Of a stretch of DNA of 64,000 nucleotides, positions 39,620 to 61,799 are shown one piece after another. The stretch spans positions 9,858,001 through 9,922,000 of the forward strand of contig NC_092002.1 of NCBI RefSeq assembly GCF_044704955.1, read 5' to 3'. Position 1 is the first letter of the stretch, and each line of letters opens with the position of its first letter. A program made the position numbers and the translations under genes. Source of the stretch: Pristiophorus japonicus (Eukaryota). The notes under the pieces were generated by a model. The model made no database searches. It was not told the origin of the DNA and saw only the letters and a program-made list of their open reading frames with translations.

Positions 39620-39637
39620 GGTGAAGCTCAGGAAACG

Positions 39638-40714
39638 ATGGAAACGGAGACCGTCGGGAACAGCAGCAGCTTCTTCAACGGCAGTTCCCCGGTGAGCTTC
39701 CCCGACACTGACCTGCTCCAGCAGTACAAGTGCTTCTTCATCCTGCTCTACTGCGCCCTGGTGGCCGTGGCCTGCGTGGGCAACGTCTTCCTGATCGGCT
39801 GCATCGCGGCCGACAAGAAGCTCCACAACGCCACCAACTTCTTCATCGGCAACCTGTCGCTCGCCGACCTGCTCATGTGCCTGACCTGCGTCCCCCCGAC
39901 CCTGTCCTACGCCTTCGAGCCGCGGGGCTGGCTCTTCGGGCGGCTCATGTGCCACTTTGTCTCGCTCATGCAGTCCGCCACGGTCTACGTCTCGGTGCTG
40001 TCGCTGGCCGCCATCGCGGTGGACCGCTACGTGGTGGTGGCCTACCCCATCCACCAGCGGATCACCCGCCACTGGTTCGGCCTCATCATCGGCGCCATAT
40101 GGATGGTCTCCCTTGCCCTGGCCAGCCCCGCCAGCGTTCACACCTGGTACCTGGAGTTCAGCGCGGTTGACTTCAACGCCTGCGGGGAGTCGTGGCCGAG
40201 CTTGGAGCAACAGAGGCTGGCCTATTCCTGCGTGGTTCTTCTCCTCTCCTACATGGTGCCGCTCGCTGCCGTCACCATCTCCTACTGTGCCATCACCGTC
40301 CATCTCAGGAGGAGGAATGACCTGAGGGAGGCAGGGAGGGACCACGTCAGATGGAGCCGAGGCAAAAGAAAGACCTTCCTCCTCTTAGTCATCTCCGTCC
40401 TGGTCTTTGGCGTCTGCTGGCTTCCGCTGCAAATCCTGAACCTGATCATCGACGCAGACGTCAACCTGACGGTCCTCAACTACAAGTACGTGAAGGTCCT
40501 CCACCTGTCCTGCCACTGGTTGGCCATGAGCTCCTCGTGTTACAACCCCTTCATCTACGCCTCGCTCCACCAGAAGTTCAGGCTGCACCTCAGGGGCTAC
40601 GCCCAACAGCGCAAGAGGAACAGCAGCTTCATGTCCAGCATCTCCTCCCCCTCGCACGCCGCGGCAGCTGACCTTCTCAAACTGGAGATGGCCAACCGGT
40701 CCGGCAGCCGCTGA
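39638..40714 (+). CDS. Prolactin-releasing peptide receptor-like class A GPCR, copy A (358 aa)
   Basis: First ATG of ORF 39605-40714. Motifs GN (TM1), KKLHNATNFFIGNLSLADL, AFEPRGWLFG, AVDRY, CWLP and SCHWLAMSSSCYNPFIYASLH match the PRLHR/NPY-receptor family. Intact and GC3-rich. Subtype (PRLHR1/2/3) not assignable by eye. Confidence 0.92.
   Translation: METETVGNSSSFFNGSSPVSFPDTDLLQQYKCFFILLYCALVAVACVGNVFLIGCIAADKKLHNATNFFIGNLSLADLLMCLTCVPPTLSYAFEPRGWLFGRLMCHFVSLMQSATVYVSVLSLAAIAVDRYVVVAYPIHQRITRHWFGLIIGAIWMVSLALASPASVHTWYLEFSAVDFNACGESWPSLEQQRLAYSCVVLLLSYMVPLAAVTISYCAITVHLRRRNDLREAGRDHVRWSRGKRKTFLLLVISVLVFGVCWLPLQILNLIIDADVNLTVLNYKYVKVLHLSCHWLAMSSSCYNPFIYASLHQKFRLHLRGYAQQRKRNSSFMSSISSPSHAAAADLLKLEMANRSGSR
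39707..40063 (+). repeat. Arm 1 of long-range inverted repeat shared by the two GPCR genes (partner 61300-61656)
   Basis: 39707-40040 is identical to the reverse complement of 61323-61656; one C/T mismatch at 40041, then identical to 40063. Confidence 0.95.
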
Positions 40715-40744
40715 AGCCCCCAGCCCGCGAGGGGTTACCGCGCG

Positions 40745-41180
40745 TTGAGTTTTGGGCACGATATTTGGCGTCGGGCCGTCAATGGCGGCACGGCAAGCGA
40801 GCCTCAGGAGGGCAGAGGAAACGCCGCAAAGGGACACCCTCGAAGCCTGCTTGGGAAAAAAGAAAGTGCAACGTCCCCACCGGCACCCGGGGAATCCCTG
40901 GCCCGAGACCACCCAAAGTGGAGGGGGAGCGTCTGGGAAGGCGCCGAACGCCTCGAGGATCTTCGCCGGGAGCACGCGGAAGCCAAGCGCAAACAGCGGA
41001 AGGAGCGCACCGACAAACCCAGGCCCCCACCCCCCCCACCCACCCAACGTCCCCCCAACCATCGTCTGCCCCACCATGACAGAGACTGTAGGTCCCGCCT
41101 TGGTCTCAGTCACCTTAGAACTCATATTGGCGTGGAAGCAAGTCAACCTCAACTCCGAGGGACTGCCTAAGAGAGAGAAG
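40745..41180 (+). mobile_element. RTE LINE 3' fragment starting about 30 nt after the copy A stop codon
   Basis: HGKRASGGQRKR...DHPKWR...KRKQRKER...RLGLSHLRTH. Confidence 0.8.
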
Positions 41181-42815
41181 AATCATTAATTGCTACACTC
41201 TACAACATGGGGTCAACACATGGCTCCCATCGTACTGAGCCACACTAACCATAAGATCCCAGAATTGATCCCTGCTGATCTCCGCTGGGAGAGAGATGAG
41301 AATGATCCTGGGATGGAGACAGAATCAGTCAGCGTTCGCGCTCCCGATCGCTGTCTCGTTTTCTGCGGGGAGCACCGTTCGATTTGTACCGTCACCGGGA
41401 GCTCGATTTAACACCAAGTTTGATGATCCTGTGAGACGATATCAGTTGTGATCGAATAGCTCAGGCTCACGTAACAGGGTAAGGCCGTGAGAAGGCTGGT
41501 ACCATCCATCGCGCGCTTGTGGAGCTCCCAATCAGACCCTGGAGCACAGCATCGAGCGATACCCTCAGGGGGAATTCACAGGCCGCCTCCAAGATATCCA
41601 CGCTGTTACACCGGAAGCTTTGGCCTGGATAGCCCACTTAGATATTAACGTTTGATTTGCTTTACCGTATGAATGAAGAAGAAGCTGTCCAATGGCTCTT
41701 ACCGGGAAGGGCACGTGTGCGTATATTGAGGAGAAAACCGGATCGAATTTGGCGGCAATGCACACCATGGTGGAAGAGCCGGCCAACGCTCATCACCCGG
41801 ACTCGCGCGTAAAGGGTGAGGTAACGGAGAACGGCTTGAGGAACTGTACCAACCATGACTCAGCCCCTTCAGGGGAGAAATTGGGAAAGTTGGATAAGGG
41901 GACACAAGCTCAAACTAGTGAAATGATATCGGGGACTGAGACTGGGACTGATCGGAGAGTGGTCAACGCTTGGAATGGACTGGGCCGGTGCCAGAGGCAG
42001 AAACCCTGGACTCATTTGAGAAATAACTAGATACAACAGTGGGGGACATTCAGTGCTGTTATAGATTGATAATTAAAATGGACCAAATGACTTTCCTCAT
42101 CCGTTACTCTCTTGTAATCTTGTGAACTGACCCTAGGCTGCATTATGTTCAATGCTGGCTGTTAAACAGAGTTCCCATTGGCTGTTGCGGGCAACAAAAT
42201 TCATGGTTTGTGCTGTCTAAGGTAGTCTGCTTGTAGGGTCTATCCTCAAGATGGTCCTACAAGGTCTGCCATTGAGATGGTCCTACAAGGTCTAACATTG
42301 AGATGGTACAATATATAAGAACATAAGAAATAGGAGTAGGCCATTCGGCCCCTCGAGCCTGCTCCGCCATTCAATGAGATCATGGCTGATCTTTGACCAC
42401 TTTCCTGACCGCTTCCCCATATCCCTTGATTCCCTCAATATCCAAAAATGTATTGATGTCCGTCTTGAATACACTCAACGACTGAGCCTCCACAGCCCTC
42501 TGGGGTAGAGAATTCCAAAGAATTACCACCCTCTGAGTGAAGAAGTTTCTCCTCATCTCAGTCCTAAATAGTTGACCTCTTATTCTGAGACTGTGATCCC
42601 TGGTTCTCGACTCTTCAGCCAGGGGGAAACATGCTCCCTGCATCCACCCTGGAAGAATTTTGTAAGCTTCAATGAGATGCTAAACCGAGGCCCCATCTGC
42701 CCCCTCAGGTGGATGTAAAAGATCCCACGGTACTATTTCAAAGAAGAGCAGGGGAGTTATCCCCGGTGTTCTGGCCAACATCTACCCTGACAAGCCCTGT
42801 AAGAATTTTGCATGT

Positions 42816-43460
42816 TTGAGATGATCCTATAAGGTCTATCCTTGAGATGGTCCTATAAGGTCTATCCTTGAGATGGTCCTATAAGGTCTATCCTTGAGAT
42901 GGTCCTATAAGGTCTACCCTTGAGATGGTCCTATAAGGTCTATTGTAATAGTTCTATAAGGTCTATCCTTGAGATGGTTCTATAAGGTCTATCCTTGAGA
43001 TGATCCTATAAGGTCTATCCTTGAGATGATCCTATAAGGTCTATCCTTGAGATGGTCCTATAAGGTCTACCCTTGAGATGGTCCTATAAGGTCTACCCTT
43101 GAGATGGTCCTATAAGGTCTATTGTAATAGTTCTATAAGGTCTATCCTTGAGATGGTCCTATAAGGTCTATCCTTGAGATGATCCTATAAGGTCTATCCT
43201 TGAGATGATCCTATAAGGTCTATCCTTGAGATGGTCCTATAAGGTCTACCCTTGAGATGGTTCTATAAGGTCTACCCTTGAGATGGTCCTATAAGGTCTA
43301 TTGTAATAGTTCTATAAGGTCTATCCTTGAGATGGTCCTATAAGGTCTATCCTTGAGATGGTCCTATAAGGTCTACCCTTGAGATGGTCCTATAAGGTCT
43401 ATTGTAATAGTTCTATAAGGTCTATCCTTGAGATGGTCCTATAAGGTCTACCCTTGAGAT
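42816..43460. repeat. 26-bp minisatellite, about 25 units with recurrent variant units
   Basis: TTGAGATGGTCCTATAAGGTCTAYCC; related degenerate units at 42235-42310, on the other side of a CR1/SINE insertion (42318-42815). Confidence 0.93.
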
Positions 43461-44092
43461 GAGAGAGCTCTCGGAAGCTTTGCTGATAGTTCACGTCAGA
43501 CTTGCCGGTTCGGCTGCACAGTTACAAGTGTGAAGCTTTCCCCTCCTTTAGCCATTGGGCAATGAGGCCAACCATTGTGCCTCAGCCGAGATCAGCTGAC
43601 TCGATGCAGCCCAGAGAGGTCTTTCATGGTCCCTGCCTTTCCCATTGGGCAAGGGACTCACTGAACCACTGCCGAAGTTTCTGGACATTATTTCGGTCGG
43701 AATGATACAGGATTTTCTTCCGAGCTCTCGTCTACATCGCTCTTTGCACCCTTGCCCTCCTCCCCTCTGTGGGCCGGTCCCTCCTCTTGGCCGATGGGAC
43801 CATCTCACCATAAGGACGCTGTCAGCTTCTCGTTGACATGTCCAAGAGAGCCCCTTGAGTGCTGTCAGCCAGAAGGGCGTCTGACTGAATGAATCGTTTC
43901 TGATAGTTTATGAAATAGATAACACTGGTATTAATGAAAGATAAACACGAGGTTTAAAACTAACAAGAAATACCTTGTATCAAATAAGCGATATTATAGA
44001 TCGACTGGGTGACGGAAGAAACCTTCAGCACAAAGGGATGACTTGTGCCTTGATAGAGTGAGAGTGACCCTCCTTTGCCAGCTTGTGCTGTG

Positions 44093-44558
44093 AAAGAAAG
44101 ACTTGCATTTATATAGCACCTTTCACAATCCACCAGCAGACTCAAAGCGCTTTACAGCCAATGAAGTACTTTTTGGAGCGTAGTCACTGCTGTAATGTGG
44201 GAAACACGGCAGCCAATTTGCGCACAGCAAGCTCCCGCAAACGGCAATGTGATAATGACCCAGATCATCTGTTTTTGTTATGTTGGTTGAGGGATAAATA
44301 TTGGCCCCAGGACACCGGGGAGAACTCCCCTGCTCTTCTTCGAAATAGTGGCCGTGGGATCTTTTATGTCCACCTGAGAGAGCAGACTGGGCCTCGGTTT
44401 AACGTCTCATCCGAAAGACGGCCCCTCCGACAGTGCGGCGCTCCCTCAGCACTGCACTGGGAGTGTCAGCCTGGATTTTTGTGCTCAAGTCCCTGGAGTG
44501 GGTTAAACCCACGATCTTCTGACTCAGAGGCAAGTGTGCTGCCCACTGAGCCACGACT
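44093..44558 (-). mobile_element. DeuSINE copy, full length
   Basis: Colinear with the consensus. Confidence 0.9.
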
Positions 44559-45437
44559 GACTTACTTCCTTTTTTTCTTTCCTTCTTAGCCTGAGGGCTG
44601 AGGACAGAAGAAGGAAAAGGTTGCCCCTCCCTCAAGCATCACTTGAAGGCGATGTTTGGAGGAAGTGCGTTTGATGCAAATTCTTCCCCCACTCAACAGT
44701 TGCAAAAATGACGGGATTATAAAAATATTAGCAGATCTCCCGTGCCATTGCTCATGGTGAGAGGATATGCTAAAGTGTGGCAGGAAGTGAGTGTGACAAT
44801 GTAAAGTGTGACAGGAAGTGAGCGTGACAGTGTAAATTGTGACAGGAAGTGGGTGTGACGCTTACGGGTAGTGCATGCTACATCCAAGACTTTTGGCATA
44901 TCGTAGACTTGTTGCTGTTTTTTCTTGACAAAAACACTGAATATCCTGGACCCATGGATGCCAGCCATTCTGGGTCTGATTTGCTCCAGACAACTCCGGT
45001 GGGTTTGCAACTTTGAACTGGCACGAGAAACCGATCCAGAGCTGGTAGAAAGTTTCCCAGGCATGTCTAGAGATGCAGCCATTGTTGCAGGTTCTTCATG
45101 GCTCAGGCGGTAACTTCTGATCATGGCATCACTGGAGGAACCTTGAGAAGGGCTGCCCAGAAATGGCAGATTTCCACATCTAGGAACATAGGAACAGGAC
45201 GAGGCCTTCATTCAATGAGATCTTGGCTGATCTGGATCTCAACTCCATTGATCTGCCTTGGTTCCTTGCCTAACAAAAATCTATCGATCTTAGTCTTGAT
45301 AGCTCCAATTGTTCCCCAGTATCCACAACCTTTTCGGGGAAGAGAGTTCCAGCTTCCCACCACCCTTTGTGTGAAGAAGTGCTTCCTGACATCACCCCTG
45401 GACGGTTTGGAGAGAAATAGTTTCTCTCTGTCTGGTA

Positions 45438-46262
45438 GATGCAGTATAATGTAGATAAATGTGAGGTTGTCCACTTTGGTGGCAAAAACAGGAAGGCAGA
45501 ATATTATCTGAATGGTGACAGATTAGGAAAAGGGGAGGTGCAACGAGACCTGGGTGTCATGGTACATCAGTCATTGAAAGTTGGCATGCAGGTACAGCAG
45601 GCCGTGAAGAAGGCAAATGACATGTTGGCCTTCTTAGCGAGAGCATTTGAATATAGGAGCAGGGGGTTTTATTGCAGTTGTACAGGGCCTTGGTGAGACC
45701 ACACCTTGAATATTGTGTGCAGTTTTGGTCTCCTAATCTGAGGAAGGACATTCTTGCTATTGAGGGAGTGCAGCGAAGGTTCACCAGACTGATTCCCGGG
45801 ATGGCAGGACTGACATATGAAGAAAGACTGGATCGACTAGGCTTATATTCACTGGAATTTAGAAAAATAAGAGGGGATCTCATAGAAACATATAAAATTC
45901 TGACGGGATTGGACAGGTTAGATGCAGGAAGAATGTTCCCGATGTTGGGGAAGTCCAGAACCAGGGGTCACAGTCTAAGGATAAGCCATTTAAGACTGAG
46001 ATGAGGAGAAACTTCTTCACTCAGAGAATTGTGAACCTGTGGAATTCTCTACCACAGAAAGTTGTTGAGGCCAGTTCGTTAGATATATTCAAAAGGGAGT
46101 TAGATGTGGCCCTTATGGTTTAAGGGATCAAGGGGTATGGAGAGAAAGCAGGAATGGGGTACTGAAGTTGCAAAAATGATCAGCCATAATCATATTGAAT
46201 GGTGGTGCAGCCTCAATGTGCCGAATGGCCTACTCCTGCATCTAATTTCTATGTTTCTATGT
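45438..46262 (+). mobile_element. CR1 LINE 3' fragment
   Basis: MQYNVDKCEVVHFG...QRDLGV...RPHLEYCVQFWSP...; (TTTCTATG)n tail. Confidence 0.93.
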
Positions 46263-46964
46263 TACCCTATCTAATCTTTCAAGCATCTTAAACACCTCAA
46301 TTAGATTACCCCTTTGTCTTCTATACTCAAGGGAATACAAAGCCAGTCTGTGCAACCTGGCCTCATAATATAACCCTTACCTCCCCCGTACCATTCTGAA
46401 TATATTTTTTAACACAGATCTCAGAGGCGAACTTTCGATAAAAAAAGCACTTCAGCCTGGACTTTCCGAATGTTTTAGGCAAATGGGGAGGGAAGGGCAG
46501 AGCCCAGGGATGAGATGTACACAGTTGGTTTTGCAGTAACCTTCTGACCAAGGAGTTAGGGCAAGAAGCCAACCTCGGAGGGGGACAGAGAGAAAATAGA
46601 GATAGCGGGGAGAAGATAAATGGATTCTTCAATCATCACCATGAGCTCCGTATGCCTTGCCAAGGAAGGATAATGAGCCAAGAAATGCACAATTTGTTTG
46701 CCAAGTTGTGATATATCTAGATCAAAATTTGTCTTGGAGCAACAATTTTGTAGAAATGACAAATAAACCAGCCATTTATAAATTTCCGCCGCCTTAAATC
46801 AGTCACTTAGTAACCTTTAGAAAGCTTTTACATTTAATCTCTGTTTTTTCTTTGCTTTATCTAAAGGCGCAACTCCTTGTTGGGTTCCAATCTCACAGAC
46901 ATTGCCAGCCTTTCTGTGTCTCACCAAACGGCCATACACATTGGACGTTCTCCTGGACGTATTG

Positions 46965-47434
46965 TATACAGGTCTCCTTACCCAAGGAAGGATATACTTG
47001 CCATAGAGGGAGTGCAACGAAGGTTCACCAGACTGATTCCTGGGATGGGGGGATTGTCCTATGAGGAGAGATTGAGTAGACTAGGCCGATATTCTCTAGA
47101 GTTTAGAAGAATGAGAGGTGATCTCATTGAAACATACAACATTGTTACAGGGCTTGACAGGGTAGATGCCGAGAGGATGTTTCCCCCCCGGGCTGGGGAG
47201 TCTGGAACCAGGGGTCACACAGTCTCAGGATAAGGGGTCGGCCATTTAGGACTGAGATGAGGAGAAATTTCTTCACTCAGAGGGTGATGAATCTTTGGAA
47301 TTCTCTGCCCCAGAGATCTGTGGAGGCTCAGTCATTGAGTATATTCAAGACAGAGATCGATAGGTTTTTGGATATTAAGGGAATCAAGGGATATAGGGAT
47401 CGGGCGGGAAAGTGGAGTTGAGGTCGAAGATCAG
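46965..47434 (+). mobile_element. CR1 LINE 3' fragment whose tail continues after the RTE at about 48150-48255
   Basis: SPYPRKDILAIEGVQRRFTRLIPG; GGAAAGTGGAGTTGAG..CGAAGA occurs on both sides of the RTE. Confidence 0.85.
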
Positions 47435-48150
47435 TCATCATCATCATCATCATAGGCAGTTCCTCGGTATCGAGGAAGACTTGCTTCCACTTATGAAGTG
47501 AGTTCTTTGGTGGCTGAACAGTCCAATACGAGAACCACAGTCTCTGTCACAGGTGGGACAGACAGTGGTTGAGGGAAGGGGAGGGCGGGACTGGTTTGCC
47601 GCACGCTCCGTCCGCTGCCTGCGTTTGATTTCTGCACGCTCTCGGCGACGAGACTCGAGGTGCTCAGCGCCCTCCCGGATGCACTTCCTCCACTTAGGGC
47701 GGTCTTTGGCCAGGGACTCCCAGGTGTCGGTGGGGATGCCGCACTTTATCAGGGAGGTTTTGAGGGTGTCCTTGTAATGTTTCTTCTGCCCACCTTTAGC
47801 TCGTTTGCCGTGAAGGAGTTCCGAGTCGAGCGCTTGCTTTGGGAGTCTCGTGTCTGGCATGCGGACAATGTGGCCCTGCCCAGCGGAGCTGGTCGAGTGT
47901 GGTCAGTGCTTCAATGCTGGGGATGTTGGCCTGGTCGAGGACACTGATGTTGGTGCGTCTGTCCTCCCAGGGGATTTGTAGGATTTGCAGAGACACCATT
48001 GGTGGTATTTCTCCAGCAACTTGAGGTGTCTGCTGTACATGTCTCTGAGCCATACAGGAGGGTGGGGATTACTACAGCCCTGTAGACCATGAGCTTGGTG
48101 GCAGTATTGAGGGCCGGGTCTTCAAACACTCTTTTGCTCAGGCGGCCGAA
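47435..48150 (-). mobile_element. RTE LINE 3' fragment
   Basis: VFEDPALNTATKLMVYRAVVIPTLLYGSET...MPDTRLPKQ...CPTCDRDCGSRIGLFSHQRTH; (GAT)n tail. Confidence 0.92.
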
Positions 48151-48837
48151 GGAAAGTGGAGTTGAGATCGAAGAGCAGCCATGATCTTATTGAATGGCGG
48201 AGCAGGCTTGAGGGGCTAAATGGCCTCCTCCTGCTCCTAGTTCTTACGTTCTTATGCATCTGACCCAAGTGACCACGGCTATTGGTTCTTCTCCTGTATC
48301 TCACCCAAGTGACCATGGGCATTGGACGTTTGCTCGGATCTCAGCCAAGGTGACCATTCTCCACGTGGGAGACTAGACAATGAGTGTCGCCAAGGTCTTT
48401 GACCATGGTGGGGGCATCACAATCGAGGCAGATCCTACCCCACATCCAGACACACACTCGCACCTCCTAGCAGGGGGTCACTAGACAGGACAGGGCAGGG
48501 GGAACTGTAAGGAAATCTCTTAATTCAATTAAATGATTCCTCCTGATTCAGGCTCGAGCGAATTGTCCAAATGCAAGTTTAGTACTCAGACACCAATAGT
48601 GTAATAAGTATTACGGTTATACAATAGACTCAGGCAACTTGGTTTGTTGCAGACCCAAGGTGATCAAGCTCGGCCTCTATGGGTGATCTCCGACCGTCCC
48701 CTGAGCCCTCTCTTCACAGGAAGATCGCGACCTGTACTTTTGTCACATGTTCAACAGCCTTCCAGCCATCCTTAAAGCACCCTCCCCCTTAATGTGAGTC
48801 ACATCACATGAGGCCCAGAATGTATCCTAGCCCATAG

Positions 48838-49490
48838 TGTCAGCTGTGGCTCAGTGGGCAGCACACTCACCTCTGGGTCAGGAGGTTGTGGGTTCATAGT
48901 CCCACTCCAGGGACTTGAGCACATAAATCCAGGCTGACATTCCCAGTGCAGTGCTGAGGGAGTGCTGCACTGTCAGAGGTGTCGTCTTTCAGATGAGACA
49001 TTAAACTGAGGCCCTGTCTGCTCTCTCAGGTGGATTAAAAGATCCCATGGCACTAATTTGAAGAAGAGCAGGGGAGTTTTCCCTGGTTTCCTGGGCCCAA
49101 TATTTATCCCTCAATCAACGTCACTAAAAGAACAGATGAACTGGTCATTATCACGTTGCTGTGTGTGGGAGCTTGCTGTGCGCAAATTGGCTGCCGCGTT
49201 TCCCACAGTACAACAGTGACGACATTCCAAAAGTGGCTATAAAGTACTTCGTTGGCTGTAAAGCACTTCGGATAATTCCCCTGCTATTCTTTTACATCCA
49301 CCTGAGAGGGCAGACGGGACCTCAGTTTAACGTCTCATCCGAAAGGCAACACCTCCGACAGTGCGGCACTCCCTCAGCATTGCACTGGCAGCGTCAGTTT
49401 AGATTTATGTGCTCAAGTCCCTGGAGTGGGACTCGAACCTACTACCTTCTGACCCAGAGGCAAGTATGCTGCCCACTGAGCCATCACTGA
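48838..49490. mobile_element. Inverted DeuSINE pair (48838-49270 +, 49275-49490 -)
   Basis: Directly abutting opposite-strand copies. Confidence 0.85.
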
Positions 49491-50419
49491 CACAAGGAGC
49501 ATCTCAAAGGAGGAGAGAGAGTTGGAGAAGTTTAGGGAGGGAATTCCAGAGCTGGACAACTGAAGGACGGCCACCGATGGTGCAACAAAGAAAAATCAGG
49601 GACGCGCAAGAGGCCCGAATTGGAGGAGGGCAGAGATCTTGGGGGGTTGTGGGGCTGGAGGAGGTGACAGAGATAGGGAGGTGGGGTGGGGGAGCGGCCA
49701 GGCCATGGAGGGATTTGAACACAAGGGTGAGAATTTTAAAATTGAGATGTTACCCGAACGGGAGCCAATGTGGGGCTGCGAGCACAGGGGAGGGGCGCGT
49801 GGGACGGGTGGGAGATGGGTGAATGGGACAGCGGCTCCGTAGGGGATAAAATCGACAAATCGTTTCTGTTGTAACCACACTCGCAGTCAAAGATCCATTT
49901 GGTTTAGGTGTCCTCCCACACACGCACACACGATTTATGGAATATTTACAAAGGGATATTGCAAATATTTACATTGTTTCTGAAGAGGCATAATTTCCAG
50001 TGAGTGCACAGTTATTCATGGGGGAGTGGGGGATGATGGGAAATGCATTGTGTGCTTGACATTAATTTTAAAAAATTGCACGGATAAAATAAGCGAGACA
50101 TTTTTCTTCCAATGCCAATTCATCTCCTTGCTTGGCTACGACGGCAAGAGTGGCGTCAGCCTCTGTTATCGCACTTGACTGGCTGTGGGTGAGTGGAAGC
50201 GAGCACTGGCAGACTATTCAACCACGGGGAGCATCGCCGTTGAGCCTGACTCTGCCCTCACCTCGGCATTCCAAGCAGGGGTCACTGGCATAGTGATCAG
50301 GAGCAGGAACCCTGACTGATTCACCCCCCCTCCACCTCGATACTCCAAAGGGTATTGAAGCCTCCTCGACGGTGCCCCCCGCCGCGCCCCAGATCAGATA
50401 AGTTGCCACACGAACCTCC

Positions 50420-52155: not shown

Positions 52156-52286
52156 AAATGGAAAATGCAGGCGATCGGTTGCGGACCAGGTTTCCGAACC
52201 CTTGTGGAGGTCGCTTTAACTGCCCCCTCGACCTGTCGACGGTTGCAGCCCTCCAACATGTCCCTGGGATGGGAACAACATGCACT

Positions 52287-52300
52287 GTTACCCTGGCAAC
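52287..52300. promoter_or_regulatory. RFX X-box motif
   Basis: GTTACC-CT-GGCAAC, a perfect match, in a repeat-free patch between the two GPCR genes. Confidence 0.45.
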
Positions 52301-52829
52301 CGAAGCAAAAATCCAATTATTTACCCAGGAGTAAAACAAATCACTCACTGAAAGTTTCCAGCGCAAGTATTGTTTTTCTTTTAAAATAAAGAGCGCAGAA
52401 TTTATTTTAAATTATTTGGAGGGGACTGATTCAGCGGGATTAAAAGGGTCGCATTTGAAACCCGTTAGAATCATGCAGTACAGAAAGAGGCCATTCGGCC
52501 CATCGTGCCTGTGCTGGCTCTTTGAAAGAGCGACCCGATTAGTCCCACTGCCCCCCGCTCTTTCACCATAGCCCTGGACAAATTTCCTTTTTAAGCATTT
52601 ATCCAACCCCCTTTTGAAGGTTACTATTGAATCTGCTCCCACCGCCCCTTCAGGCAGCGCAGTGCGTTCCAGATCACAGCAACTCACTGCGTAAATAAAA
52701 TTCTCCCCCTCAACACCCGCTGGTTCTTTTGCCAGTTATCTTAAATCTGTGCCCTTTGGTTACCAGCCAGTGGAAACAGCTTCTGCCTATTTACTCCAGC
52801 AATACCCTTCATAATTTTGATCGCAAGAA

Positions 52830-53240
52830 TTGCGTTTATATAATGATTGTCATGACCACCAGGTATCCCAAAGCACTTTACAGCCAAAAAAATAAATTTT
52901 GAAGTGTAGTCACTGTTGTAATGTAGGAAACGCGGCCGCCAATTTGCGCACAGCAAGCTCCCACACACAGCGACGGTGACAATGACCCAGATTAATTTGC
53001 GACACCAGGAATAACTCCGCTGCTCTTTTTGAAATAGTGCCGCAGAATCTTTCACGTCCACCCGAGGCCTCGGTTTAACGTCTCGACCGAAAGACGGCAC
53101 CTCCGACAGTGCGCCGCTCCCTAAGTACAGGCACTGGGAGCGTCAGCCTAGATTTTTGTGATCGGGTCTCTGGAGTGGGGTCTTGAACCCACGACCTTCT
53201 GAGTCAGAGGCGAGGGTGCTGACCACTGGGCCACGGCTGG
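52830..53240 (-). mobile_element. DeuSINE copy
   Basis: Reverse complement of the consensus with small deletions. Confidence 0.85.
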
Positions 53241-53835
53241 GGAATAACGACGCGTCGGGACTTGGATATGATGCCCACACAGTCGAATATCCCGCCCCTC
53301 CGGTTCCATGCCTGTTCTCACGGGCGAAGAACGGTCACGCGGGTGAGATGTCAAGGGGGGAGGGGGGGGGAGCGGAATGGATAAAAAGGAGGGGGAGCAT
53401 GGGGATAAATGAGCCACAATGCTCACTGGGAGACTGCTAGCAATCTCAAGGTTTGGGATCTGGGAAAGCAAATGAGAAACAGCCACTCGTGGGACCACAG
53501 CTGAATGGTTCTGCTGGCTTCAAGCGCTTCTCCTGGCAGATTCTCCGGAAGCCCCCTGGGTGACCCTTCGACAACTTTTTAATGTTGTTCTTTTAAATAG
53601 TTTGATGATAAAACTGAGTAAGTTTGGCTGAAAGGCGCAATGCTTTCATGGATAGATAGGAAGGCTTGCGTCTGACTTTTGGGTGATCATGTGCTGTGGG
53701 CTTGTGTTTGAAGCGAAGCCATAAGTGTCCGACAATTATTTAATTTCGCTATCCACAGTTGGTGGAAAGGTCAGGGGGCGAGGGGTGGGGGGCTGCGAAG
53801 ATTCGATCCAAAGTGTCGTTTTTTGCTATTTTAAG

Positions 53836-54297
53836 TGTCAGCCATGGCTCAGTGGGCAGCACACTCGCCTCTGAGTCAGGGTTCAAGTCCCACTCCAGGG
53901 AGTTGAGCACAAAAATCTAGGCCGACACTCCCAGTGCAGTGCTGAGGGAGCGCCGCACTGTCGGAGGTGCCGTCTTTCAGATGAGACGTTAAACCGAGGC
54001 CCCGACTGCTCTCTCGGGTGGACGCAAAAGATCCCGCGGCACTATTTCGAAGGAGAGCAGGGGGAGTTCTCCCCGGTGTCCTGGGGCCAATATTTATCCC
54101 TCAGCCAACATAACAGAAACAGATTATCAGGTCATTATCACATTGCTGTGTGTGGGAGCTTGCTGTGCGCAAATTGCCTGCCGCGTTTCCCACATTACAA
54201 CAGTGACTACGTTCCAAAAGTACTTCATTGGCTGTAAAGCGCTTTGAGGCGTCCGGTGCTCGTGGAAGGCGCTATATAAATGCAAGTCTTTCTTTCT
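53836..54297 (+). mobile_element. DeuSINE copy, full length
   Basis: Colinear with the consensus. Confidence 0.9.
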
Positions 54298-54818
54298 AAT
54301 AGTTAAAACCTCTCAGTTCTGGTATCATTCTAGCAAATCTTTGTTGCCTTTTTGAGCGCAGTGCATGCGGCCTAACCAACCTCCACCAGAGAGGCAGTCT
54401 GCATCCCACACACTTTCCACAGACAAGTGTTGAGGACATCATTTCTCGTTTTTTGCTTCTCCGCCCTAGCTGTTCGAGCTGAAGCCGCCTTCTGTTCTCC
54501 GTGGCTGCTTCCCCGTGTGGGACGCCCTAACTCCCCCTCGGCGACCTCGCTGGGGTTGCGGGCCCCCCCCCCCCAGGGTTGCTGGCCGAACCCCCAGTAC
54601 CCTCACCCCCGGTGGTCACACACACCACGTGCGAGCCCAGACGGCGAGCGGCTGCGGGCTATTCGGCCAGGCGATGCGTCATGGCCGGGCCCGCGATTCC
54701 TGCTCTCAGCTGATGTCCACGAGCAAGGATGGCAGGGGATGGGCGGGGGGGGGGGGGAGGGGGTGGTGGGGTGCAGTGTGCGAGGGGGCATGTCATTGGA
54801 TAACCGTCAGGACCTGAC

Positions 54819-55334
54819 GGAGCCGAAATTGCCCCTTTTAGCAAGAGCCGTTATGAGTGTCCTCTCCGACGATCGGGACGTTGCACTCCTGATTTTTTTT
54901 TGAGGCGCAGAACCTGACCGAACCCCTCCTGTGCAATCGCTGACAGCGACATCACGATAACGCGCACCTCCTGGTTCCCGCCCCGGAAGCGACACTGCCC
55001 TCAAAAAAAAAACAAATCGCTTGACCGATTGTCGGTGCCTCCAACAGCTTTGCTCGGCCGGAAGCAGCCAGTGGCTGGGTGGCGGTCTGCCCTTAAAGGC
55101 CGTCAAGTATCGCCCTCTCCTTTAAGTGAAGGGGAGCGACGTAGCTAAGCATCAGTGCAACACCGAAGACACCGCCCGCCTTCCGCCCCGCTCCCGACTC
55201 GCCTCTGTCCGCTCCGCAGCCCCAAGCGCCGTCCCGATCATTTTTCTCAAGAAAAGAGGGCGATTTCACTCTATTCCCCGTCCCAACGATTGGGGCGGTA
55301 ATGCACCAAACGGGGCGCAGGACAATTTTTCCCC
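54819..55334. mobile_element. GC-rich MITE-like element
   Basis: Termini GGAGCCGAAATTG ... CAATTTTTCCCC; internal CCCTCTCCTTTAAG motif shared with 33735-34424 and 59940-60327. Confidence 0.55.
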
Positions 55335-55631
55335 TGGCGCTTTTTATTCTTCCCTCTCTCCTCCCCCCACCCCCAAGTTGAAGGGCGCCGAGGCCAACTG
55401 TAGCACCCCCTCCCCCCCCCCCCCAATCCCGCCCTCTGCTCTGGGCGGAGATCAGACAACTCAACACGGGCTAACGATGGGGCCTGGTCACCCAACCTAG
55501 CCAGTCTGACCCTTGACCCCCAGCGGCTCGCACCCTCTCTGCGGGCGGTGGCAATTGGAACAGCCCTGGCGGGTCGGCGGGGCCTCAGGGAGGGGCCGCG
55601 TGGCGCGGCAGGGTGAAATAACCGCAATATA

Positions 55632-55645
55632 GCGCCACCTAGTGG
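55632..55645 (-). promoter_or_regulatory. CTCF motif (reverse)
   Basis: Minus strand CCACTAGGTGGCGC, a perfect core. Confidence 0.6.
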
Positions 55646-56805
55646 GCCACTGCTCCACCCGGTGGACTACTGTGGTAATGCAACTGATGTCAATCCAATA
55701 AAAGCATCACGTGACAAGGTCACCTGACAAGTTCCTGTTGGAGACATCTTGTGTGTGTTGTGATGTTGTAAAGAATTTATCACAATAACAGATTGGAGAA
55801 CACGTCCCATCTTCAAAGTCTTTATTGAAACAGTGAACCCTGAAGGCAACATGATACGGGAGCCCGACATACCAAAGACGCATTCAATAGTCACAAGAAC
55901 TAAAGCACCAGTGCGATACACAACACACTGAAATAAATACAGAGAGCCTCACATATGATCCAGGAGGAGGGAGGTTTTTGCTTGGTATTCATTCCTGGGA
56001 TGAGGACAAAGCTGGCATTTATTGCCCATCCCTAATTGCCCCTTGAGAAGGTAGTGAGCCGTCTTCTTGAACCGCTGCAGTCCGTGTGGTGAAGGTGCTC
56101 CCACACAGTGCTGTTAGGGAGAGAGTTCCAGGATTGTGACCCAGCGACGATGAAGGAACGGCCGATATATTTCCAAGTCGGGATGGTGTGTGACTGGGAG
56201 GGGAACGTGGAGGTGGTGGTGTTCCCATGCGCCTGCTGCCCTTGTCCTTCTAGGCGGTAGAGGTCGCGGGTTTGGGAGGTGCTGCCGAAGAAGCCTTGGC
56301 GAGTTGCCGCAGTGCATCTTGTAGACGGTGCACACTGCAGCCAGGGGGCGCCGGTGGTGGAGGGAGTGAGTGTTGAAGGTGGTGGGTAGCGTGCCGATCA
56401 AGCGGCTGCTTTGTCCTGGATGGTGTCGAGCTTCTCGAGTGTTCCACCACACTCCCGACTTGTGCCTTGTGGATGGTGCAAAGGCTTTGGGGAGTCAGGA
56501 CGTGAGACACTCACGACTGAGTACCCAGCCTCTGACCTGCTCGTGCAGCCATGGCATTTATGGTATTGATACGCACTTTACTATCAAGAACGAGACAAGC
56601 TCAGACCAGTCCACGTCATTGTACAGCCTCAAACTGTGTAAGCACACCCCGGATCTTTATTTCTTTTCTCTGCTCGCCCCCTGACTCTTTCTAGTAGCAA
56701 GAGTTGCCCCACCACCCCCGTGCTTTCATGTGCCAGCCTCGGCAGTCAGCCTCTAGGGGCTATTTGGCTGTGGGAGGCATCGCGGCCGAGCCTTGGAGCT
56801 GCTGC

Positions 56806-57214
56806 TGGGCATTGCCAACTCTGGCTGGCGGTACTCCCGGAGGCTGCGTCACATGACGACACCCCCATGGCCCCGCTCCCCCCCCCGCTCTCCCGTCATT
56901 GGTCGCCCGTGATGTCCATCCCCGCGGAGCCCTGCCTTCCACCGCCAATTGCAGAACAGAGTCTCCGCTGCCCAAACTGGCTGTGGACTGTCAGAAAAAC
57001 AATCTTTATTTTCACGCCCCGCCACAACGCCAATATTTAAAAAAATAAAATAACAAACAAAAGCATTCGAAAGAAAATAGAATTAAAAATACACAATTCT
57101 TGTTTGACACCCCCTCAGATTATATTTCCTGTGGTGTTGCTCGGGGCAGCGTACTGCCGATTAATCTACGATTCCTGGAGGATCCAGGACAATCCTGGAG
57201 GGAGTTGGCAACAC
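56806..57214. mobile_element. Old hAT-like non-autonomous DNA element
   Basis: Termini TTGCCAACTC ... GAGTTGGCAA resembling TAGGGTTGCCAAC-type TIRs; related pieces near 29830-30000 and 30675-30706. Confidence 0.5.
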
Positions 57215-58719
57215 TTGGTTTTCAGGGCAGAGGGCTAGTCTTCGATGGATGTTTTCTCCCTTGAGGTGGCACTCCCGAATCTCTCCTACCATCATCCGAA
57301 AGGCTCTGGTTGTGGCTGTGATTGATGGCAGCAGTGAAGAACAGCAAGACGTTTGAGTTACACCGCTCCCCTGCTCTACACAATATTTGGCATCAGACCG
57401 ATTAAACATTCAGACACATGTTACACAATAAATATTTGCTCCGTGAAGCAATTCGCTTCATGGAAAAATGTAAGAATAAATTATTCAGAACTCGTTACCA
57501 GAAGTTTTGAATCAACCAGCACAATGCTTTTGTTCTCTCCTTGCTTACGATGCCTCCCCCCCACCCATACCGGTTTGGGGCACGGTTCCACAGGCCTCAA
57601 CCGCTGTCTTGTAACACACGGCGGGCTCTTCGACCTTGGTGTGCAGCACCGCCGAGTCCGATCTTGTTCGGACTCAGTGTCCGCCTGCAATCTCTTTTCA
57701 ACGGGGGGGGGTCAGGGATGGGTGGGGGGGGGGGGGGGGAAAAGAGTTCCCGGACAGTGAGCAGGAGCAGGAACCCATGGAAATCAATGCTGGGACCATC
57801 TGCAATCGAGATCCCTGGCTGGAGGTCTTACCCAGTAACCCAATAGGCCCTGGAGCAATTGGAGGGCTTTGGAAATCAGAATTAAATTTTTTTGCCCACT
57901 TGATTCCCTTACAATCATTGCAGTTCCAGGAGAGAAGGCGGCCTTTCGGCCCATCGAATCTGTGCCTGTGCTAGCTCCAATCCCATTTTCCTGTCCTTTC
58001 CTCCCCTCCCCTGTATCCTTTGTCCTTTTCAAACACCCAAGAGTTGGAGCTCATAATCCAAGATGACACTTCAGCCCAGCACTGAGTGAGTGCTGCAGTT
58101 TCCGAAGTCAGGTGGGACATCAAACCGACGTCCCATTTGTTTGATTAGTCGGACAGCAAAGATCCCAAGGCACCGTTCAAATGAGAAGATTCCCCCAGGA
58201 GACCATAATCTCTCCCTTTCCTCCCCTTCTTGTTACAACCCCACCCCCCCCCACCCCGTTTATTTTTTCTCTTTTTCCCATGGCAGCTGGTGATGATTCC
58301 GCCATTCACACCCCACGTAGCTCTGATTCTCCAGCTAGCTTCAACACTACATCAAGAAGTATGGTGAAAGGTCAGAGCTTCAGAATCCAAATCCTTTAAT
58401 AATGTAGCGTTGAGGCTAGCTGGAGAATCAGAGCTACGCTCGCATTACGCTACGCTCTGACAGAAACCGGTAATCACTGTACTTCTGGGAAGGTTTGATA
58501 CAACAAGAGATTCGTTTCTAATCACTAAAAGTTACAGACAGTCTGAGCTAAAATGGATGCTTTCACCCTGCTTGCTGGCTGGTTTACTCTTTGGTTTTTG
58601 TTTCTCGTTGTTCTTTTCTGTCCAATCGGGAAAACGCCACCCTGTGGCTGGAGTACTTCATGACAGCTACTGTGTCCAGAATTAAACTGGCTCCAACCAA
58701 TACACCCCATCTAGACTAA

Positions 58720-58975
58720 TCTTTTGTTCCCTAACTTGTGCCATTACCATCTCATTTTTTCCCATCATCCCTTTTGTCTCTCTAATCTCTCCTGCCTTCC
58801 ACCCTATCACAGACCTTCCCCTTTTGTGCTTTCCTCCCTTCCCCCCTTTCAGTGCCCCTGCACTTCCTTAAGAATCTGTTACATCTCAAACTTTTCCAGT
58901 TCTGATGAAGGGTCACCGACCCGAAATGTTAACTCTGTTTCTCTCTCCACAGATGCTGCCTGACCCGCTGTTCTT
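58720..58975 (+). mobile_element. Penelope-like element terminal-repeat fragment containing a minimal hammerhead motif
   Basis: Pyrimidine-rich leader, then AGTT-CTGATGA-A-GGGTC-ACC-GACCC-GAAA-TGTT-AACT. Confidence 0.7.
58898..58934 (+). ncRNA. Putative minimal type I hammerhead ribozyme motif
   Basis: Core CUGAUGA (58902-58908) and GAAA (58923-58926), 5-bp stem II GGGUC/GACCC, 4-bp stem I AGUU/AACU, loopless stem III. Confidence 0.55.
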
Positions 58976-59447
58976 ATTTCAGACTTGCCCTGGTGCCTTG
59001 GCCAACAATCCTCTCAGCTCCACTATTTGAGAAGCCTGCTCCTTATCTTCTGGCCTCACTTCAGCCCGACGCCCCTGATATTTGGCAGGGCGGATAAGTC
59101 AGTGGACCTTCTCTTGGGCGGGAAGACTTGAGGCCTTCTGCGACCAGTGGACACCGCAGAATGTCGAGTGTCTTGTCGACACTGATCTAGTTTAGTTGGT
59201 GGTTTTGCGGCCTTATTTTTAAGCACCCTTTGGTTTAATTGGACCACTTGCTTGGTTATTGTGCTAGTGGTGCTCTTAAAGGGCCACTCGTAGTGTTGAT
59301 TCCTGTCAGGCGACACTGGAGCGACTCCGCTTTGGGCCACCAAAATAGGCCCAACCTCAATCACAGGGGTTGCTCTAAGGTAACCTGATTTCAGCTGAGG
59401 CAGTAGTTAGATGGTACTGCCCAGGGATGCTTAGTGCCCCTGGGCTA

Positions 59448-59865
59448 TGAACATGAGAAATAGAAGCAGGAGTAAGCCATTCGGCCCCTCGAGCCTGCTC
59501 GGCCATTCAATATCATGGCTGATCTTCTACCTCAACTCCACTTTCCCGCCCTATCCCCTTGTCCCTTGATTCCCTTGAAAATACCCAATGCCTGAGCCTC
59601 CACAGCCCTCTGGGGCAGAGAATTCCAAAGATTCACCACCCTCTGAGTGAAGAAATTCTTCCTCGTCTCAGTCCTAAATGGTTGACCCCTTATCCTGGGA
59701 CTATGTGACCCCCGGTTCTAGACTCTCCAGCCCGGGAGAAATAGCCTCTCAGCATCTACCCCTTTCAAGCTCCTTAAGAATTTCATATGTCCCAATGAGA
59801 TCACCTCTCATTCGTCTATATTCCAGAAAATATAGACCCAATCTACTAAATCTCTCCTCGCAGGT
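59448..59865 (-). mobile_element. CR1 LINE 3' fragment
   Basis: Reverse complement of the CR1 tail and coding end. Confidence 0.85.
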
Positions 59866-59939
59866 TAAACCGTCTGGATTCCCATTCATGCTCACTCTTT
59901 GAGTGACTCCCAGGTGGAAATCACACGTCTCGAGACTGG

Positions 59940-60327
59940 GAGGATGAAAATGCCCTCTCTTTCATTTTTTTCAATGGGTTGGGGCAGCGTTTTGGGCGGA
60001 GGTGGGTCGGGAGCGGGGCGGAAGGCGGGCAGTGTCATCAGCGCCGCGCTAATGCCCCTTCCCTTCAGTTAAAGGGGAGGGCCACTGTACATGCAGCAGT
60101 CCACTTCAGCAGTGCCCACCTGGGGAGGGGGGGGGGGGGGGTGGGCTGTGGCCATACCCGTGGCCGCCGCTGTTGGGCCGACCTCAGAGTCGGACGGCAA
60201 TTAAAAACAAAATGGCCGGCGCAGTGCCCTCCCCTTTAAGAGCAGACGCTCAGCCACTGGCAGCTTACTCCTAAGGGGCGGTAATGGACCTTAAGGAGGT
60301 GGGGGGGGGGGGTTCAATTTCGGCCCC
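59940..60327. mobile_element. GC-rich MITE-like element with 3-bp TSD (TGG)
   Basis: GAGGATGAAAATG ... CAATTTCGGCCCC; TGG at 59937-59939 and 60328-60330. Confidence 0.6.
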
Positions 60328-60624
60328 TGGGTCTAGGGTTGGGATTGGGGGTCACTTCCGATGCTTGCCGTGGTCGAATAGCCTGCCGTCATTCATTGTC
60401 CAGATTCGCAGCGAAGGAGGGTCCACCTTGGGTTGAGGTAGCGGGCGGCTGCTGGGGGCTCCAGAGGGGTCGTCGTTGACAACAGGGATGGTGGGGGGGT
60501 TTTGGGTGGGGTGGGTGGGGGGGGGAGAAAGTGGAAACGGGCGATAAGAACAAATATGAACAACCGTGAGAAGCCACGATGGCGCCCATCAGGGAGGGCG
60601 TGCGGAAACACGGTGGACGCCGGC

Positions 60625-61728
60625 TCAGAGCGTGTTGAGGACGTAGGAGCCGTTGTCCGTGCCGGCCTTGGGCGCCTTGGACACCAGGCTGACGCTGGTG
60701 TGGAACGGCGAGAGGCGGGCGGACGGGAAGCTTCCCGGCCTCCGCCAGCGGCCCAAGTAGCCGCGGAGCCGGAGGCGGAACTTGCGGTGGAGCGAGGCGT
60801 AGATGAAGGGGTTGTAGCACGAGGAGCTCATGGCCACCCAGTGGCAGGAGAGCTGGCTGACGTTGAGATAGCGCACGTCGATGAGGGCAAAGTCCACGTC
60901 CAGGTCCCGGATCAGGTTGAGGATCTGCAGGGGCATCCAGCAGAGGGCGAAGGTCACCACCGAGACCACCAGGAGGGAGAAGGTCTTGCTCTTCCGCCTG
61001 TTCCACCGGGCCTGGTTCCGCTGCACCGCCCCCGGCACGTTCCTCCTCCGGAGGTGGACGGTGATGGCGCAGTAGGAGACGGTGACAGCCGCGAGCGGGA
61101 TCATGTAGGACACGAGGATGACCACGCACGAGTAGGCCAGCCTCTCCTTCTCCAGGCCCCGCCAGAACTCCTCGCAGATGTTCACGTCGCTGCCGGTCTC
61201 CTGGAGTTCCACGTAGCGCACGTAGACGGCGGCAGGGGTGGCCAGGGCCAGAGCCAGCACCCAGATGGCCCCCACAACGAGGCCGCAGCAGCCCAGCGCG
61301 ATCCGCTGGTGGATGGGGTAGACCACCACCACGTAGCGGTCCACCGCGATGGCGGCCAGCGACAGCACCGAGACGTAGACCGTGGCGGACTGCATGAGCG
61401 AGACAAAGTGGCACATGAGCCGCCCGAAGAGCCAGCCCCGCGGCTCGAAGGCGTAGGACAGGGTCGGGGGGACGCAGGTCAGGCACATGAGCAGGTCGGC
61501 GAGCGACAGGTTGCCGATGAAGAAGTTGGTGGCGTTGTGGAGCTTCTTGTCGGCCGCGATGCAGCCGATCAGGAAGACGTTGCCCACGCAGGCCACGGCC
61601 ACCAGGGCGCAGTAGAGCAGGATGAAGAAGCACTTGTACTGCTGGAGCAGGTCAGTTCCCGCAAACCTCACCGGGGAACTGCCGTTGAAGAAGCTGCTGC
61701 TGTTCTTCCTGCTCTCCTCCGTTTCCAT
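60625..61728 (-). CDS. Prolactin-releasing peptide receptor-like class A GPCR, copy B (367 aa)
   Basis: ATG at 61728 (METEES...); the ORF track upstream of it runs into a SINE. Canonical PRLHR motifs CEEFW, RLAYS, LIRDLD, QLSCHWVAMSSSCYNPFIYA; ends ...VLNTL*. Confidence 0.94.
   Translation of the reverse strand: METEESRKNSSSFFNGSSPVRFAGTDLLQQYKCFFILLYCALVAVACVGNVFLIGCIAADKKLHNATNFFIGNLSLADLLMCLTCVPPTLSYAFEPRGWLFGRLMCHFVSLMQSATVYVSVLSLAAIAVDRYVVVVYPIHQRIALGCCGLVVGAIWVLALALATPAAVYVRYVELQETGSDVNICEEFWRGLEKERLAYSCVVILVSYMIPLAAVTVSYCAITVHLRRRNVPGAVQRNQARWNRRKSKTFSLLVVSVVTFALCWMPLQILNLIRDLDVDFALIDVRYLNVSQLSCHWVAMSSSCYNPFIYASLHRKFRLRLRGYLGRWRRPGSFPSARLSPFHTSVSLVSKAPKAGTDNGSYVLNTL
61300..61656 (-). 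repeat. Arm 2 of long-range inverted repeat shared by the two GPCR genes
   Basis: Direct base-by-base comparison; the shadow-frame ORFs 39730+ and 61633- are also identical over this tract. Confidence 0.95.
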
Positions 61729-61799
61729 ACTTCCCTCCTCATGAGCGTTCGGGATTGGCCTTTGGGATAAAACACAGCACTTCATACAGGAACTTGCGA

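What the first reader, a model, noticed from the sequence alone, without database searches (positions are those of the whole stretch)
40063..61300. A 21-kb segment bounded by in-frame inverted repeats: inversion would swap receptor halves between promoters
Seen: the identical tracts are inverted and occupy the same codon positions in both genes. Geometry: a crossover within them flips the intervening 21 kb and yields two in-frame full-length receptors, promoter/N-terminus A with TM4-C-tail B and the reciprocal. No gene is broken. Inference (speculative): the locus could be a recurrent inversion polymorphism acting as an expression switch for receptor specificity, and recurrent pairing would also explain the homogenization. 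No recombinase or dedicated recombination site is visible.
Basis: inference. Interest (0 to 1): 0.7.

Follow-up and report, generated by a model that had tools for sequence, protein, structure and literature searches.

The report
Shark receptor twins share front half
Two old, tail-to-tail copies of a shark neuropeptide-receptor gene have an identical front half, likely kept so by repeated copying between the genes, while their back halves differ at predicted ligand-contact sites; the DNA between them could flip, but related sharks show no sign that it did.

Summary
The geometry is confirmed; the switch is not supported. Two intact prolactin-releasing-peptide-receptor (PRLHR-family) genes converge tail to tail (A 39638-40714 +, B 61728-60625 -). 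They share a 334-bp identical inverted tract at matching codons, confirmed in short-read contigs. An in-silico crossover gives two open receptors.

The pair predates the shark-ray split. In 7 of 10 elasmobranch species pairs TM1-TM3 is homogenised or mixed between paralogues; the back half always sorts A versus B. This is likely recurrent gene conversion, in opposite directions in two sharks. A-type has fixed changes at predicted peptide-contact sites, all outside the tract.

Against a flipping switch: a marker upstream of the tract stays with the A back half in 7 of 7 sharks. The tract is far shorter than the repeats of known recurrent inversions, and the two putative promoter/first-exon regions are 84% alike. 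Rare inverted alleles remain possible, most of all in rays, where no marker survives. No long reads were available. A new case of a known kind.

The parts
35928..36419 (+). Putative promoter / 5' exon region of gene A. Inverted paralogue of the region upstream of gene B, which lies just beyond the window (L016:2578-2228 and 1680-1545, minus strand). Splice donor GT at 36369.
   Evidence: 84% over 369 bp and 70% over 147 columns; only 2 matches in G000; homologous donors; database model P0001 has exons at 35598-35786 and 36195-36368. The promoter role is inferred.
39620..40714 (+). Gene A coding exon (ATG 39638, 358 aa), PRLHR-family GPCR, elasmobranch A-type with an altered upper peptide pocket
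   Evidence: ORF; Pfam 7tm_1 2e-56; best PDB match human PrRP receptor 1.6e-86; contact-site map
39658..39696 (+). 39-bp identical piece, left arm (pairs with 61705-61667)
39697..39706 (+). Unconverted patch holding the A-specific N-terminal marker (codons 20-23; D23 in A, G in B)
39707..40063 (+). Homogenised tract, left arm: 334 bp identical, 1 mismatch, 22 bp identical (codons 24-142, TM1 to ICL2)
   Evidence: read contigs
40064..61299 (.). Intervening 21.2 kb: both divergent 3' halves plus about 20 kb of repeat-rich DNA with no recognisable gene or recombinase
   Evidence: 51% of 40715-60624 covered by local repeats; 1 of 107 ORFs with a sub-threshold Pfam hit
40541..40571 (+). 31-bp identical piece in TM7 (NPxxY region; pairs with 60816-60786)
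   Evidence: collapsed 31-mer at depth 14 in X1
60625..61759 (-). Gene B coding exon (ATG 61728, 367 aa), PRLHR-family GPCR that keeps the bony-vertebrate-like pocket
   Evidence: ORF; Pfam 7tm_1 7e-57; start and acceptor inferred from sequence; tree; contact map
61300..61656 (-). Homogenised tract, right arm
61667..61705 (-). 39-bp identical piece, right arm

Best explanation
Two intact PRLHR-family receptor genes face each other tail to tail and share an identical TM1-TM3 coding tract, likely because the old duplicates repeatedly pair and copy that part by non-crossover gene conversion, while selection probably keeps the back halves different. Shown: identity including synonymous sites; discordant trees for the two halves; an A/B split older than the shark-ray split; a boundary at intracellular loop 2 in most species; A-specific changes at positions that contact the peptide in the human receptor. 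Inferred: an inverted duplication of the whole gene with its 5' exon in the elasmobranch stem; fold-back or ectopic pairing as the route; conversion tracts that run into ECL2-TM7 being purged because they would erase A's altered pocket (the alternative is that 25% divergence simply blocks conversion there); and A having a changed ligand preference. Crossovers would invert the 21 kb and may occur rarely, but none appears fixed in the sharks that can be scored.
For: Nucleotide level: 1 of 357 nt and 0 of 67 four-fold sites differ in codons 24-142, versus 119 of 450 and 12 of 41 in codons 171-320. Paralogue identity within species over residues 24-142, for all 10 pairs, out of 119: 118 (window), 112, 106, 102, 100, 111, 118, 116, 117, 119. 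Over 171-320 it averages 0.59, against 0.75-0.76 between orthologues. Topology test on 26 rows: the N-half rejects an all-A clade (p-AU 6e-6) and accepts five species-pair clades; the C-half does the reverse (p-AU 4e-55). Direction differs: at residues 53/55/57 both window genes carry the state of galeomorph A, both Heptranchias genes the state of galeomorph B. Tract end: residue 139-142 in most, extended to 174 in Hypanus. Human contact sites (PMC11369081 section 6, mapped through the alignment): E45.51 is G, R6.58 is I, Q7.35 is H and ECL2 V208 is F in 11 of 11 A rows. B keeps E (22 of 22) and Q (22 of 22), and has R/Q/S at 6.58. The RF-amide core (C2.57, T2.61, Q3.32, E45.52, Y5.38, D6.59, H7.39) is kept in all rows. 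The 334-bp tract exceeds the roughly 200-bp minimal segment for efficient conversion (PMC3924818 passages). All 9 other species pairs share one contig length, so are probably linked.
Against: 3 of 10 pairs (S. torazame, Cetorhinus, Carcharodon) do not group by species in the N-half tree and differ at 13-19 of 119 residues, so conversion is episodic, not universal. For species other than the window's, only proteins were available; synonymous identity and gene orientation were not seen. TM1-TM3 is also the more conserved half between orthologues (0.83-0.87), which inflates similarity. Selection on the back half is inferred from fixed differences, not tested. The AU test ran 5000 replicates and warned that 10000 are wanted. 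Conversion between inverted repeats is sometimes resolved as a crossover (about 4% in yeast, as cited in PMC9731477 Discussion), so some inversion is expected.
Confidence: 0.8

Rival explanations
1. Recurrent germline inversion polymorphism (flip/flop): pairing of the arms is often resolved as a crossover, so both orientations segregate and re-arise, as in the Saccharomyces chromosome XIV region or the mammalian FLNA-EMD region.
For: Arms are inverted and a crossover leaves both frames open. The tract differs no more than apparent alleles do (1 of 357 versus 2 differences in a 1279-bp X3 contig), so pairing is very recent. In 4 of 4 ray pairs G is present at residue 23 in both copies, so rays cannot be scored. 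Each species is one assembly.
Against: D23 stays with the A back half in 7 of 7 sharks and never appears in 22 B rows. Random orientation gives 0.008 for 7 lineages, but only 0.125 if just the 3 sharks with currently homogenised tracts count. A second 5' marker, an acidic leader before the ATG, is seen with B in 4 sharks (window B by translation, S. torazame, Carcharodon, Mustelus); the A leader is known only from the window. Known cases have far longer repeats: 1.6-32 kb in the 22 human candidates of PMC3961182 Table 1 and 4.2 kb in yeast. G000 holds one A and one B, with no alternative haplotig.
Confidence: 0.12
2. A regulated or somatic DNA inversion switch that changes which promoter drives which receptor.
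For: Only the geometry.
Against: No recombinase-like domain in 107 ORFs between the genes or 50 of 549 flanking ORFs scanned (a retroelement integrase about 57 kb beyond the window is the only such hit). No short dedicated sites were seen. The two putative promoter/first-exon regions are 84% alike. The front halves of the proteins are the same, so the only change would be regulatory.
Confidence: 0.02
3. No conversion: strong purifying selection on TM1-TM3, or a recent partial duplication, explains the identity.
For: TM1-TM3 is conserved between orthologues; GC3 is 0.98 in the tract, which limits synonymous freedom.
Against: 0 synonymous differences in 118 codons, whereas the back half has 30 in 97 although GC3 there is 0.87-0.97. 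Lineage-specific residues are shared by both paralogues. The duplication is old.
Confidence: 0.04
4. Assembly or polishing artefact that copied one paralogue onto the other.
For: X1-X4 may be the sample behind the assembly (tool's warning).
Against: Contigs built from the reads collapse the tract at about the summed depth, with no other letters against A. The same pattern appears in independent species.
Confidence: 0.02

Closest known systems
Gene conversion between neighbouring GPCR paralogues (CCR2/CCR5, CXCR1/CXCR2)
   Same: Linked class A receptor duplicates homogenised by conversion (PMC3568907 passages; the primary papers Shields 2000 and Vazquez-Salat 2007 seen only as references).
   Different: Here the genes are inverted and convergent. 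The pair is an elasmobranch neuropeptide receptor duplicate with a boundary at ICL2 repeated across sharks and rays, and the unconverted half carries fixed pocket changes.
Saccharomyces chromosome XIV flip/flop region; eutherian FLNA-EMD recurrent inversion
   Same: A segment of about 20-45 kb between inverted repeats that are homogenised within species by conversion (PMC9731477 abstract and Discussion; the FLNA-EMD paper by Caceres et al. seen only as cited there).
   Different: Those repeats are 4.2 kb and about 11 kb (row HsInv0389, matched to FLNA-EMD from recall) and both orientations are observed. Here the identical stretch is 0.33-0.4 kb inside a coding exon and only one 5'-3' pairing is seen.
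Vertebrate PRLHR (GPR10 / PrRP receptor) family
   Same: Single coding exon 7TM receptor with a conserved RF-amide pocket; several subtypes in non-mammals (PMC3296468, PMC5207463, PMC6504862 passages).
   Different: A and B are a lineage-specific duplicate of one non-mammalian subtype, sister to the clade named prlh2r. This is not the PRLHR1/PRLHR3 tandem described for anole. The subtype number could not be fixed because the three papers number differently.
Site-specific invertible switches (Hin, Fim, shufflons; recalled)
   Same: Inversion would re-pair a 5' part with a different 3' part.
   Different: No recombinase or short dedicated sites found; a vertebrate locus; no second orientation seen.

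Membership tests
PRLHR / PrRP receptor family | Class A 7TM receptor whose closest characterised relative is the PrRP receptor | tested here: met
   Pfam 7tm_1; human PrRPR 1.6e-86 versus NPY2R 1.7e-49; tree
PRLHR / PrRP receptor family | RF-amide core pocket C2.57, T2.61, Q3.32, E45.52, Y5.38, D6.59, H7.39 | tested here: met
   7 of 7 kept in A and B and in all 41 rows
PRLHR / PrRP receptor family | Upper pocket E45.51, R6.58, Q7.35 | tested here: inconclusive
   Met in window B (E, R, Q); not met in A (G, I, H in 11 of 11 A rows)
PRLHR / PrRP receptor family | Activation by PrRP or C-RFa peptides | not testable with these tools
   Two PrRP-family precursor matches exist in G000; no assay
Partial gene conversion between paralogues | Identity at synonymous sites in a bounded tract | tested here: met
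   0 of 67 four-fold sites versus 12 of 41; window species only
Partial gene conversion between paralogues | Trees of converted and unconverted parts disagree | tested here: met
   3 of 10 pairs do not group by species
Recurrent inversion between homogenised inverted repeats (flip/flop, FLNA-EMD type) | Inverted, homogenised arms around the segment | tested here: met
   (window species)
Recurrent inversion between homogenised inverted repeats (flip/flop, FLNA-EMD type) | Near-identical repeats of kilobase size | tested here: not met
   334 bp exact, about 400 bp near-exact, versus 1.6-32 kb and 4.2 kb
Recurrent inversion between homogenised inverted repeats (flip/flop, FLNA-EMD type) | Different orientations fixed in different species | tested here: not met
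   5' marker concordant in 7 of 7 sharks; rays unscorable; indirect protein marker, one assembly each
Recurrent inversion between homogenised inverted repeats (flip/flop, FLNA-EMD type) | Both orientations within a species | not testable with these tools
   Only unphased short-read contigs
Recurrent inversion between homogenised inverted repeats (flip/flop, FLNA-EMD type) | Inverted arrangement conserved across species | not testable with these tools
   No relative genomes held; shared contig lengths show linkage only
Site-specific invertible switch | Linked recombinase and short dedicated sites | tested here: not met
   No such domain in 107 intervening ORFs; flanks scanned only in part, 50 of 549 ORFs

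The most novel reading that the evidence does not exclude
Because the two receptors share their front half and lie inverted, crossovers inside the coding tract keep re-creating a flip/flop allele that puts the standard receptor and the altered-pocket receptor under each other's promoter without breaking either gene. It segregates in populations, most plausibly in rays, where homogenisation reaches the start of the protein and, in Hypanus, through TM4.
Probability: 0.1. Interest if true: 0.72.

Novelty: new member of a known kind. Interest (0 to 1): 0.38.

Why it matters
It gives a natural domain-swap experiment repeated across sharks and rays. The converted part marks what two neuropeptide receptors can share, and the boundary marks what likely defines the new receptor's specificity (ECL2, TM6, TM7). 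It points to an elasmobranch PRLHR duplicate with fixed changes at peptide-contact sites, a candidate for a changed ligand that my searches did not find described. It also warns that whole-protein trees and short-read mapping misassign these genes. If both orientations were found, it would be a rare case of an inversion that rewires promoter and receptor without breaking a gene.

Tried and rejected
Read phase: the look-up of sequencing runs listed 7 runs, all short-read-type contigs, no RNA holder listed. One X3 contig joins A 5' flank, tract and A 3' half, but a graph contig cannot phase a 334-bp repeat and gene B was absent from that run's laid contigs, so I give it no weight. A 153-bp X5 contig matches A; its library type is not on record, so it is no evidence of expression.

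Search for shorter homologues: 57 hits, none above 65% identity, so no further shark A/B fragments.

Callorhinchus P0147 was used as an outgroup but belongs to the prlh2r clade. No holocephalan orthologue was found, so the duplication is bounded only as older than the shark-ray split.

GC3 as a sign of biased conversion is inconclusive: the tract is 0.98, but B's back half is 0.97 and the unlinked paralogue L004 0.97-0.98.

The subtype number (PRLHR2-5) could not be assigned. A-type was not found for carpet sharks, skates, Narcine, Hemitrygon or S. canicula, nor B for Heterodontus; this may be loss or missing annotation.

Earlier scan findings: nothing. No fold or complex prediction was run; a heterodimer explanation like that proposed for CCR2/CCR5 was not tested. 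No supplements were read; the synteny figure of PMC3296468 may bear on subtype naming.
Full report
WHAT IS THERE. The window is G000:C28:9858001-9922000 of a 5.9-Gb genome. A protein 100% identical to gene A is labelled Pristiophorus japonicus, a sawshark, by UniRef. Two long ORFs converge: A, 39638-40714 (+, 358 aa), and B, ending at 60625 (-), most likely starting at ATG 61728 (367 aa), since the ORF-finder start at 61785 lies upstream of a splice acceptor homologous to A's. Both are 7tm_1 receptors, and the best solved relative of A is the human prolactin-releasing peptide receptor (1.6e-86; next NPY2R 1.7e-49). G000 has one A, one B and two further intact family members on C4 and C3.

The arms share 334 identical bases (39707-40040 / 61656-61323, codons 24-135), one mismatch, then 22 more, ending at 40063 and 61300. 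Codons 24-142 differ at 1 of 357 nt with no synonymous difference in 118 codons; codons 171-320 differ at 119 of 450 nt. It is the longest exact inverted match in 264 kb. Short-read contigs of run X1 collapse the tract at depth 13.6 and branch into A (8.6) and B (6.0), so the identity is in the reads; this run may be the assembly's own sample. A simulated crossover at three positions gave open frames of 366 and 359 aa with swapped ends. The duplicated unit is larger than the coding exon. Sequence upstream of A (35928-36419) matches sequence upstream of B just beyond the window at 84% and 70%, occurs only twice in G000, and ends in homologous splice donors; a database model uses the A copy as an exon. 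Between the genes lie about 20 kb, half of it local repeats, with 1 sub-threshold Pfam hit in 107 ORFs.

THE PAIR IS OLD AND ITS FRONT HALF IS REPEATEDLY HOMOGENISED. Homologue searches gave both paralogues for nine more elasmobranchs, each pair with one shared contig length. A and B form one elasmobranch clade (FastTree support 0.996 and 0.945), sister to a single bony-vertebrate orthologue, and each type includes sharks and rays. The duplication therefore predates their split. In the back half all 11 A rows form one clade (100/100). In the front half the window pair (98/91), Heptranchias (98/90) and Mustelus (95/93) group by species, and ray A and B rows mix inside a ray clade (97/93). S. 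torazame, Cetorhinus and Carcharodon do not group by species. A constrained test on 26 of the 41 rows rejects an all-A clade for the front half (p-AU 6e-6) and species pairs for the back half (p-AU 4e-55), with a warning on replicate number. At residues 53, 55 and 57 both window genes carry the galeomorph A state and both Heptranchias genes the B state, so separate events ran in opposite directions. The tract ends near residue 139-142 in most species but reaches 174 in Hypanus. Outside the window species this rests on proteins only.

THE BACK HALVES DIFFER WHERE THE PEPTIDE BINDS. I mapped the contacts listed in section 6 of PMC11369081 through the alignment. The RF-amide core is invariant in all 41 rows. 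E45.51 to G, R6.58 to I, Q7.35 to H and ECL2 V208 to F are fixed in 11 of 11 A rows, while B keeps E and Q in 22 of 22. That paper reports that mutating Q7.35 most reduced potency and that E45.51 stabilises the extracellular region. All four sites lie beyond the tract, even in Hypanus. I infer that A has an altered ligand preference and that selection removes conversion tracts that cross into this region; plain divergence blocking conversion is an untested alternative.

THE INVERSION IDEA. A crossover in the tract would move the unconverted N-terminal patch onto the other back half. Residue 23 is D in 7 of 7 shark A proteins and G in 22 of 22 B rows and in the bony outgroups, so no such swap is fixed in these lineages. 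The chance figure is 0.008 for seven independent lineages but 0.125 for the three with currently homogenised tracts, so this is moderate evidence. An acidic leader before the ATG goes with B in four sharks. The four ray pairs have G in both copies and cannot be scored. Known recurrent inversions use much longer repeats: 1.6-32 kb in Table 1 of PMC3961182 and 4.2 kb in yeast, where about 4% of conversions are said to end in crossover (PMC9731477 Discussion). The tract does exceed the roughly 200-bp minimal segment for conversion (PMC3924818 passages). It differs no more than apparent alleles do, so pairing is recent and rare inverted alleles are plausible. Nothing supports a regulated switch, and with 84%-alike 5' regions a swap might change little. 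Orientation within the species could not be tested.

COMPARISON AND NOVELTY. It works like conversion between neighbouring chemokine receptor genes (PMC3568907 passages) and has the layout, but not the repeat size or the second orientation, of flip/flop inversions. PRLHR subtypes are described in PMC3296468, PMC5207463 and PMC6504862 (passages); none of those passages mentions this duplicate. A search for the receptor name with 'shark' returned 0 papers. A five-term GPCR conversion search returned 2 unrelated papers, and none of the 15 listed of 420 papers contains 'PRLHR'. The library lacks most subscription journals.

VERDICT. Real feature; recurrent half-gene conversion between old inverted receptor duplicates (0.8); inversion polymorphism 0.12; regulated switch 0.02. 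New member of a known kind; interest 0.38.

Noticed in passing
L036:3982-4260 and beyond (G000:C3 near 254.93 Mb): A PRLHR-like pseudogene with an in-frame stop lies about 52 kb from the intact family member L004, on the same strand. It recalls the PRLHR1/PRLHR3 tandem reported for anole.
   Followed up: partly
window 8556-9146 (-): Last exon of a Rho-family GTPase (Pfam Ras 4e-23), RhoU/RhoV-like by recall; a usable synteny anchor on A's side.
   Followed up: partly
P0014 (Hypanus sabinus): Mosaic receptor: identical to its B paralogue through TM4 (to residue 174), A-type afterwards, with a gap in TM6 that may be a defect or a model error.
   Followed up: partly
P0015, P0127-P0129, P0023, P0022, P0130, P0021: Only B-type proteins were found for carpet sharks, skates and Narcine, suggesting repeated loss of A or missing annotation.
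   Followed up: no
L016:1668-2289: A 25-bp minisatellite of about 22 copies interrupts the putative first exon region of gene B; A has only a short related motif repeat.
   Followed up: no
window 61742-61668 (-): An out-of-frame ATG 14 nt upstream of B's start opens a short overlapping frame; absent in A (read from the sequence).
   Followed up: no
L037 (G000:C5) and L038 (G000:C3): Two PrRP-family precursor matches above the Pfam cut-off, the likely ligands.
   Followed up: no
P0108: A protein labelled Lampetra planeri nests inside teleost sequences; probably contamination.
   Followed up: no
window 17140-19185, 10125-11152, 23128-23928: Minisatellite arrays with periods of about 88, 33 and 68 bp (self-BLAST offsets).
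   Followed up: no
L021:7156-8424 (-): 423-aa open frame with retroelement integrase domains, about 57 kb beyond the window.
   Followed up: no
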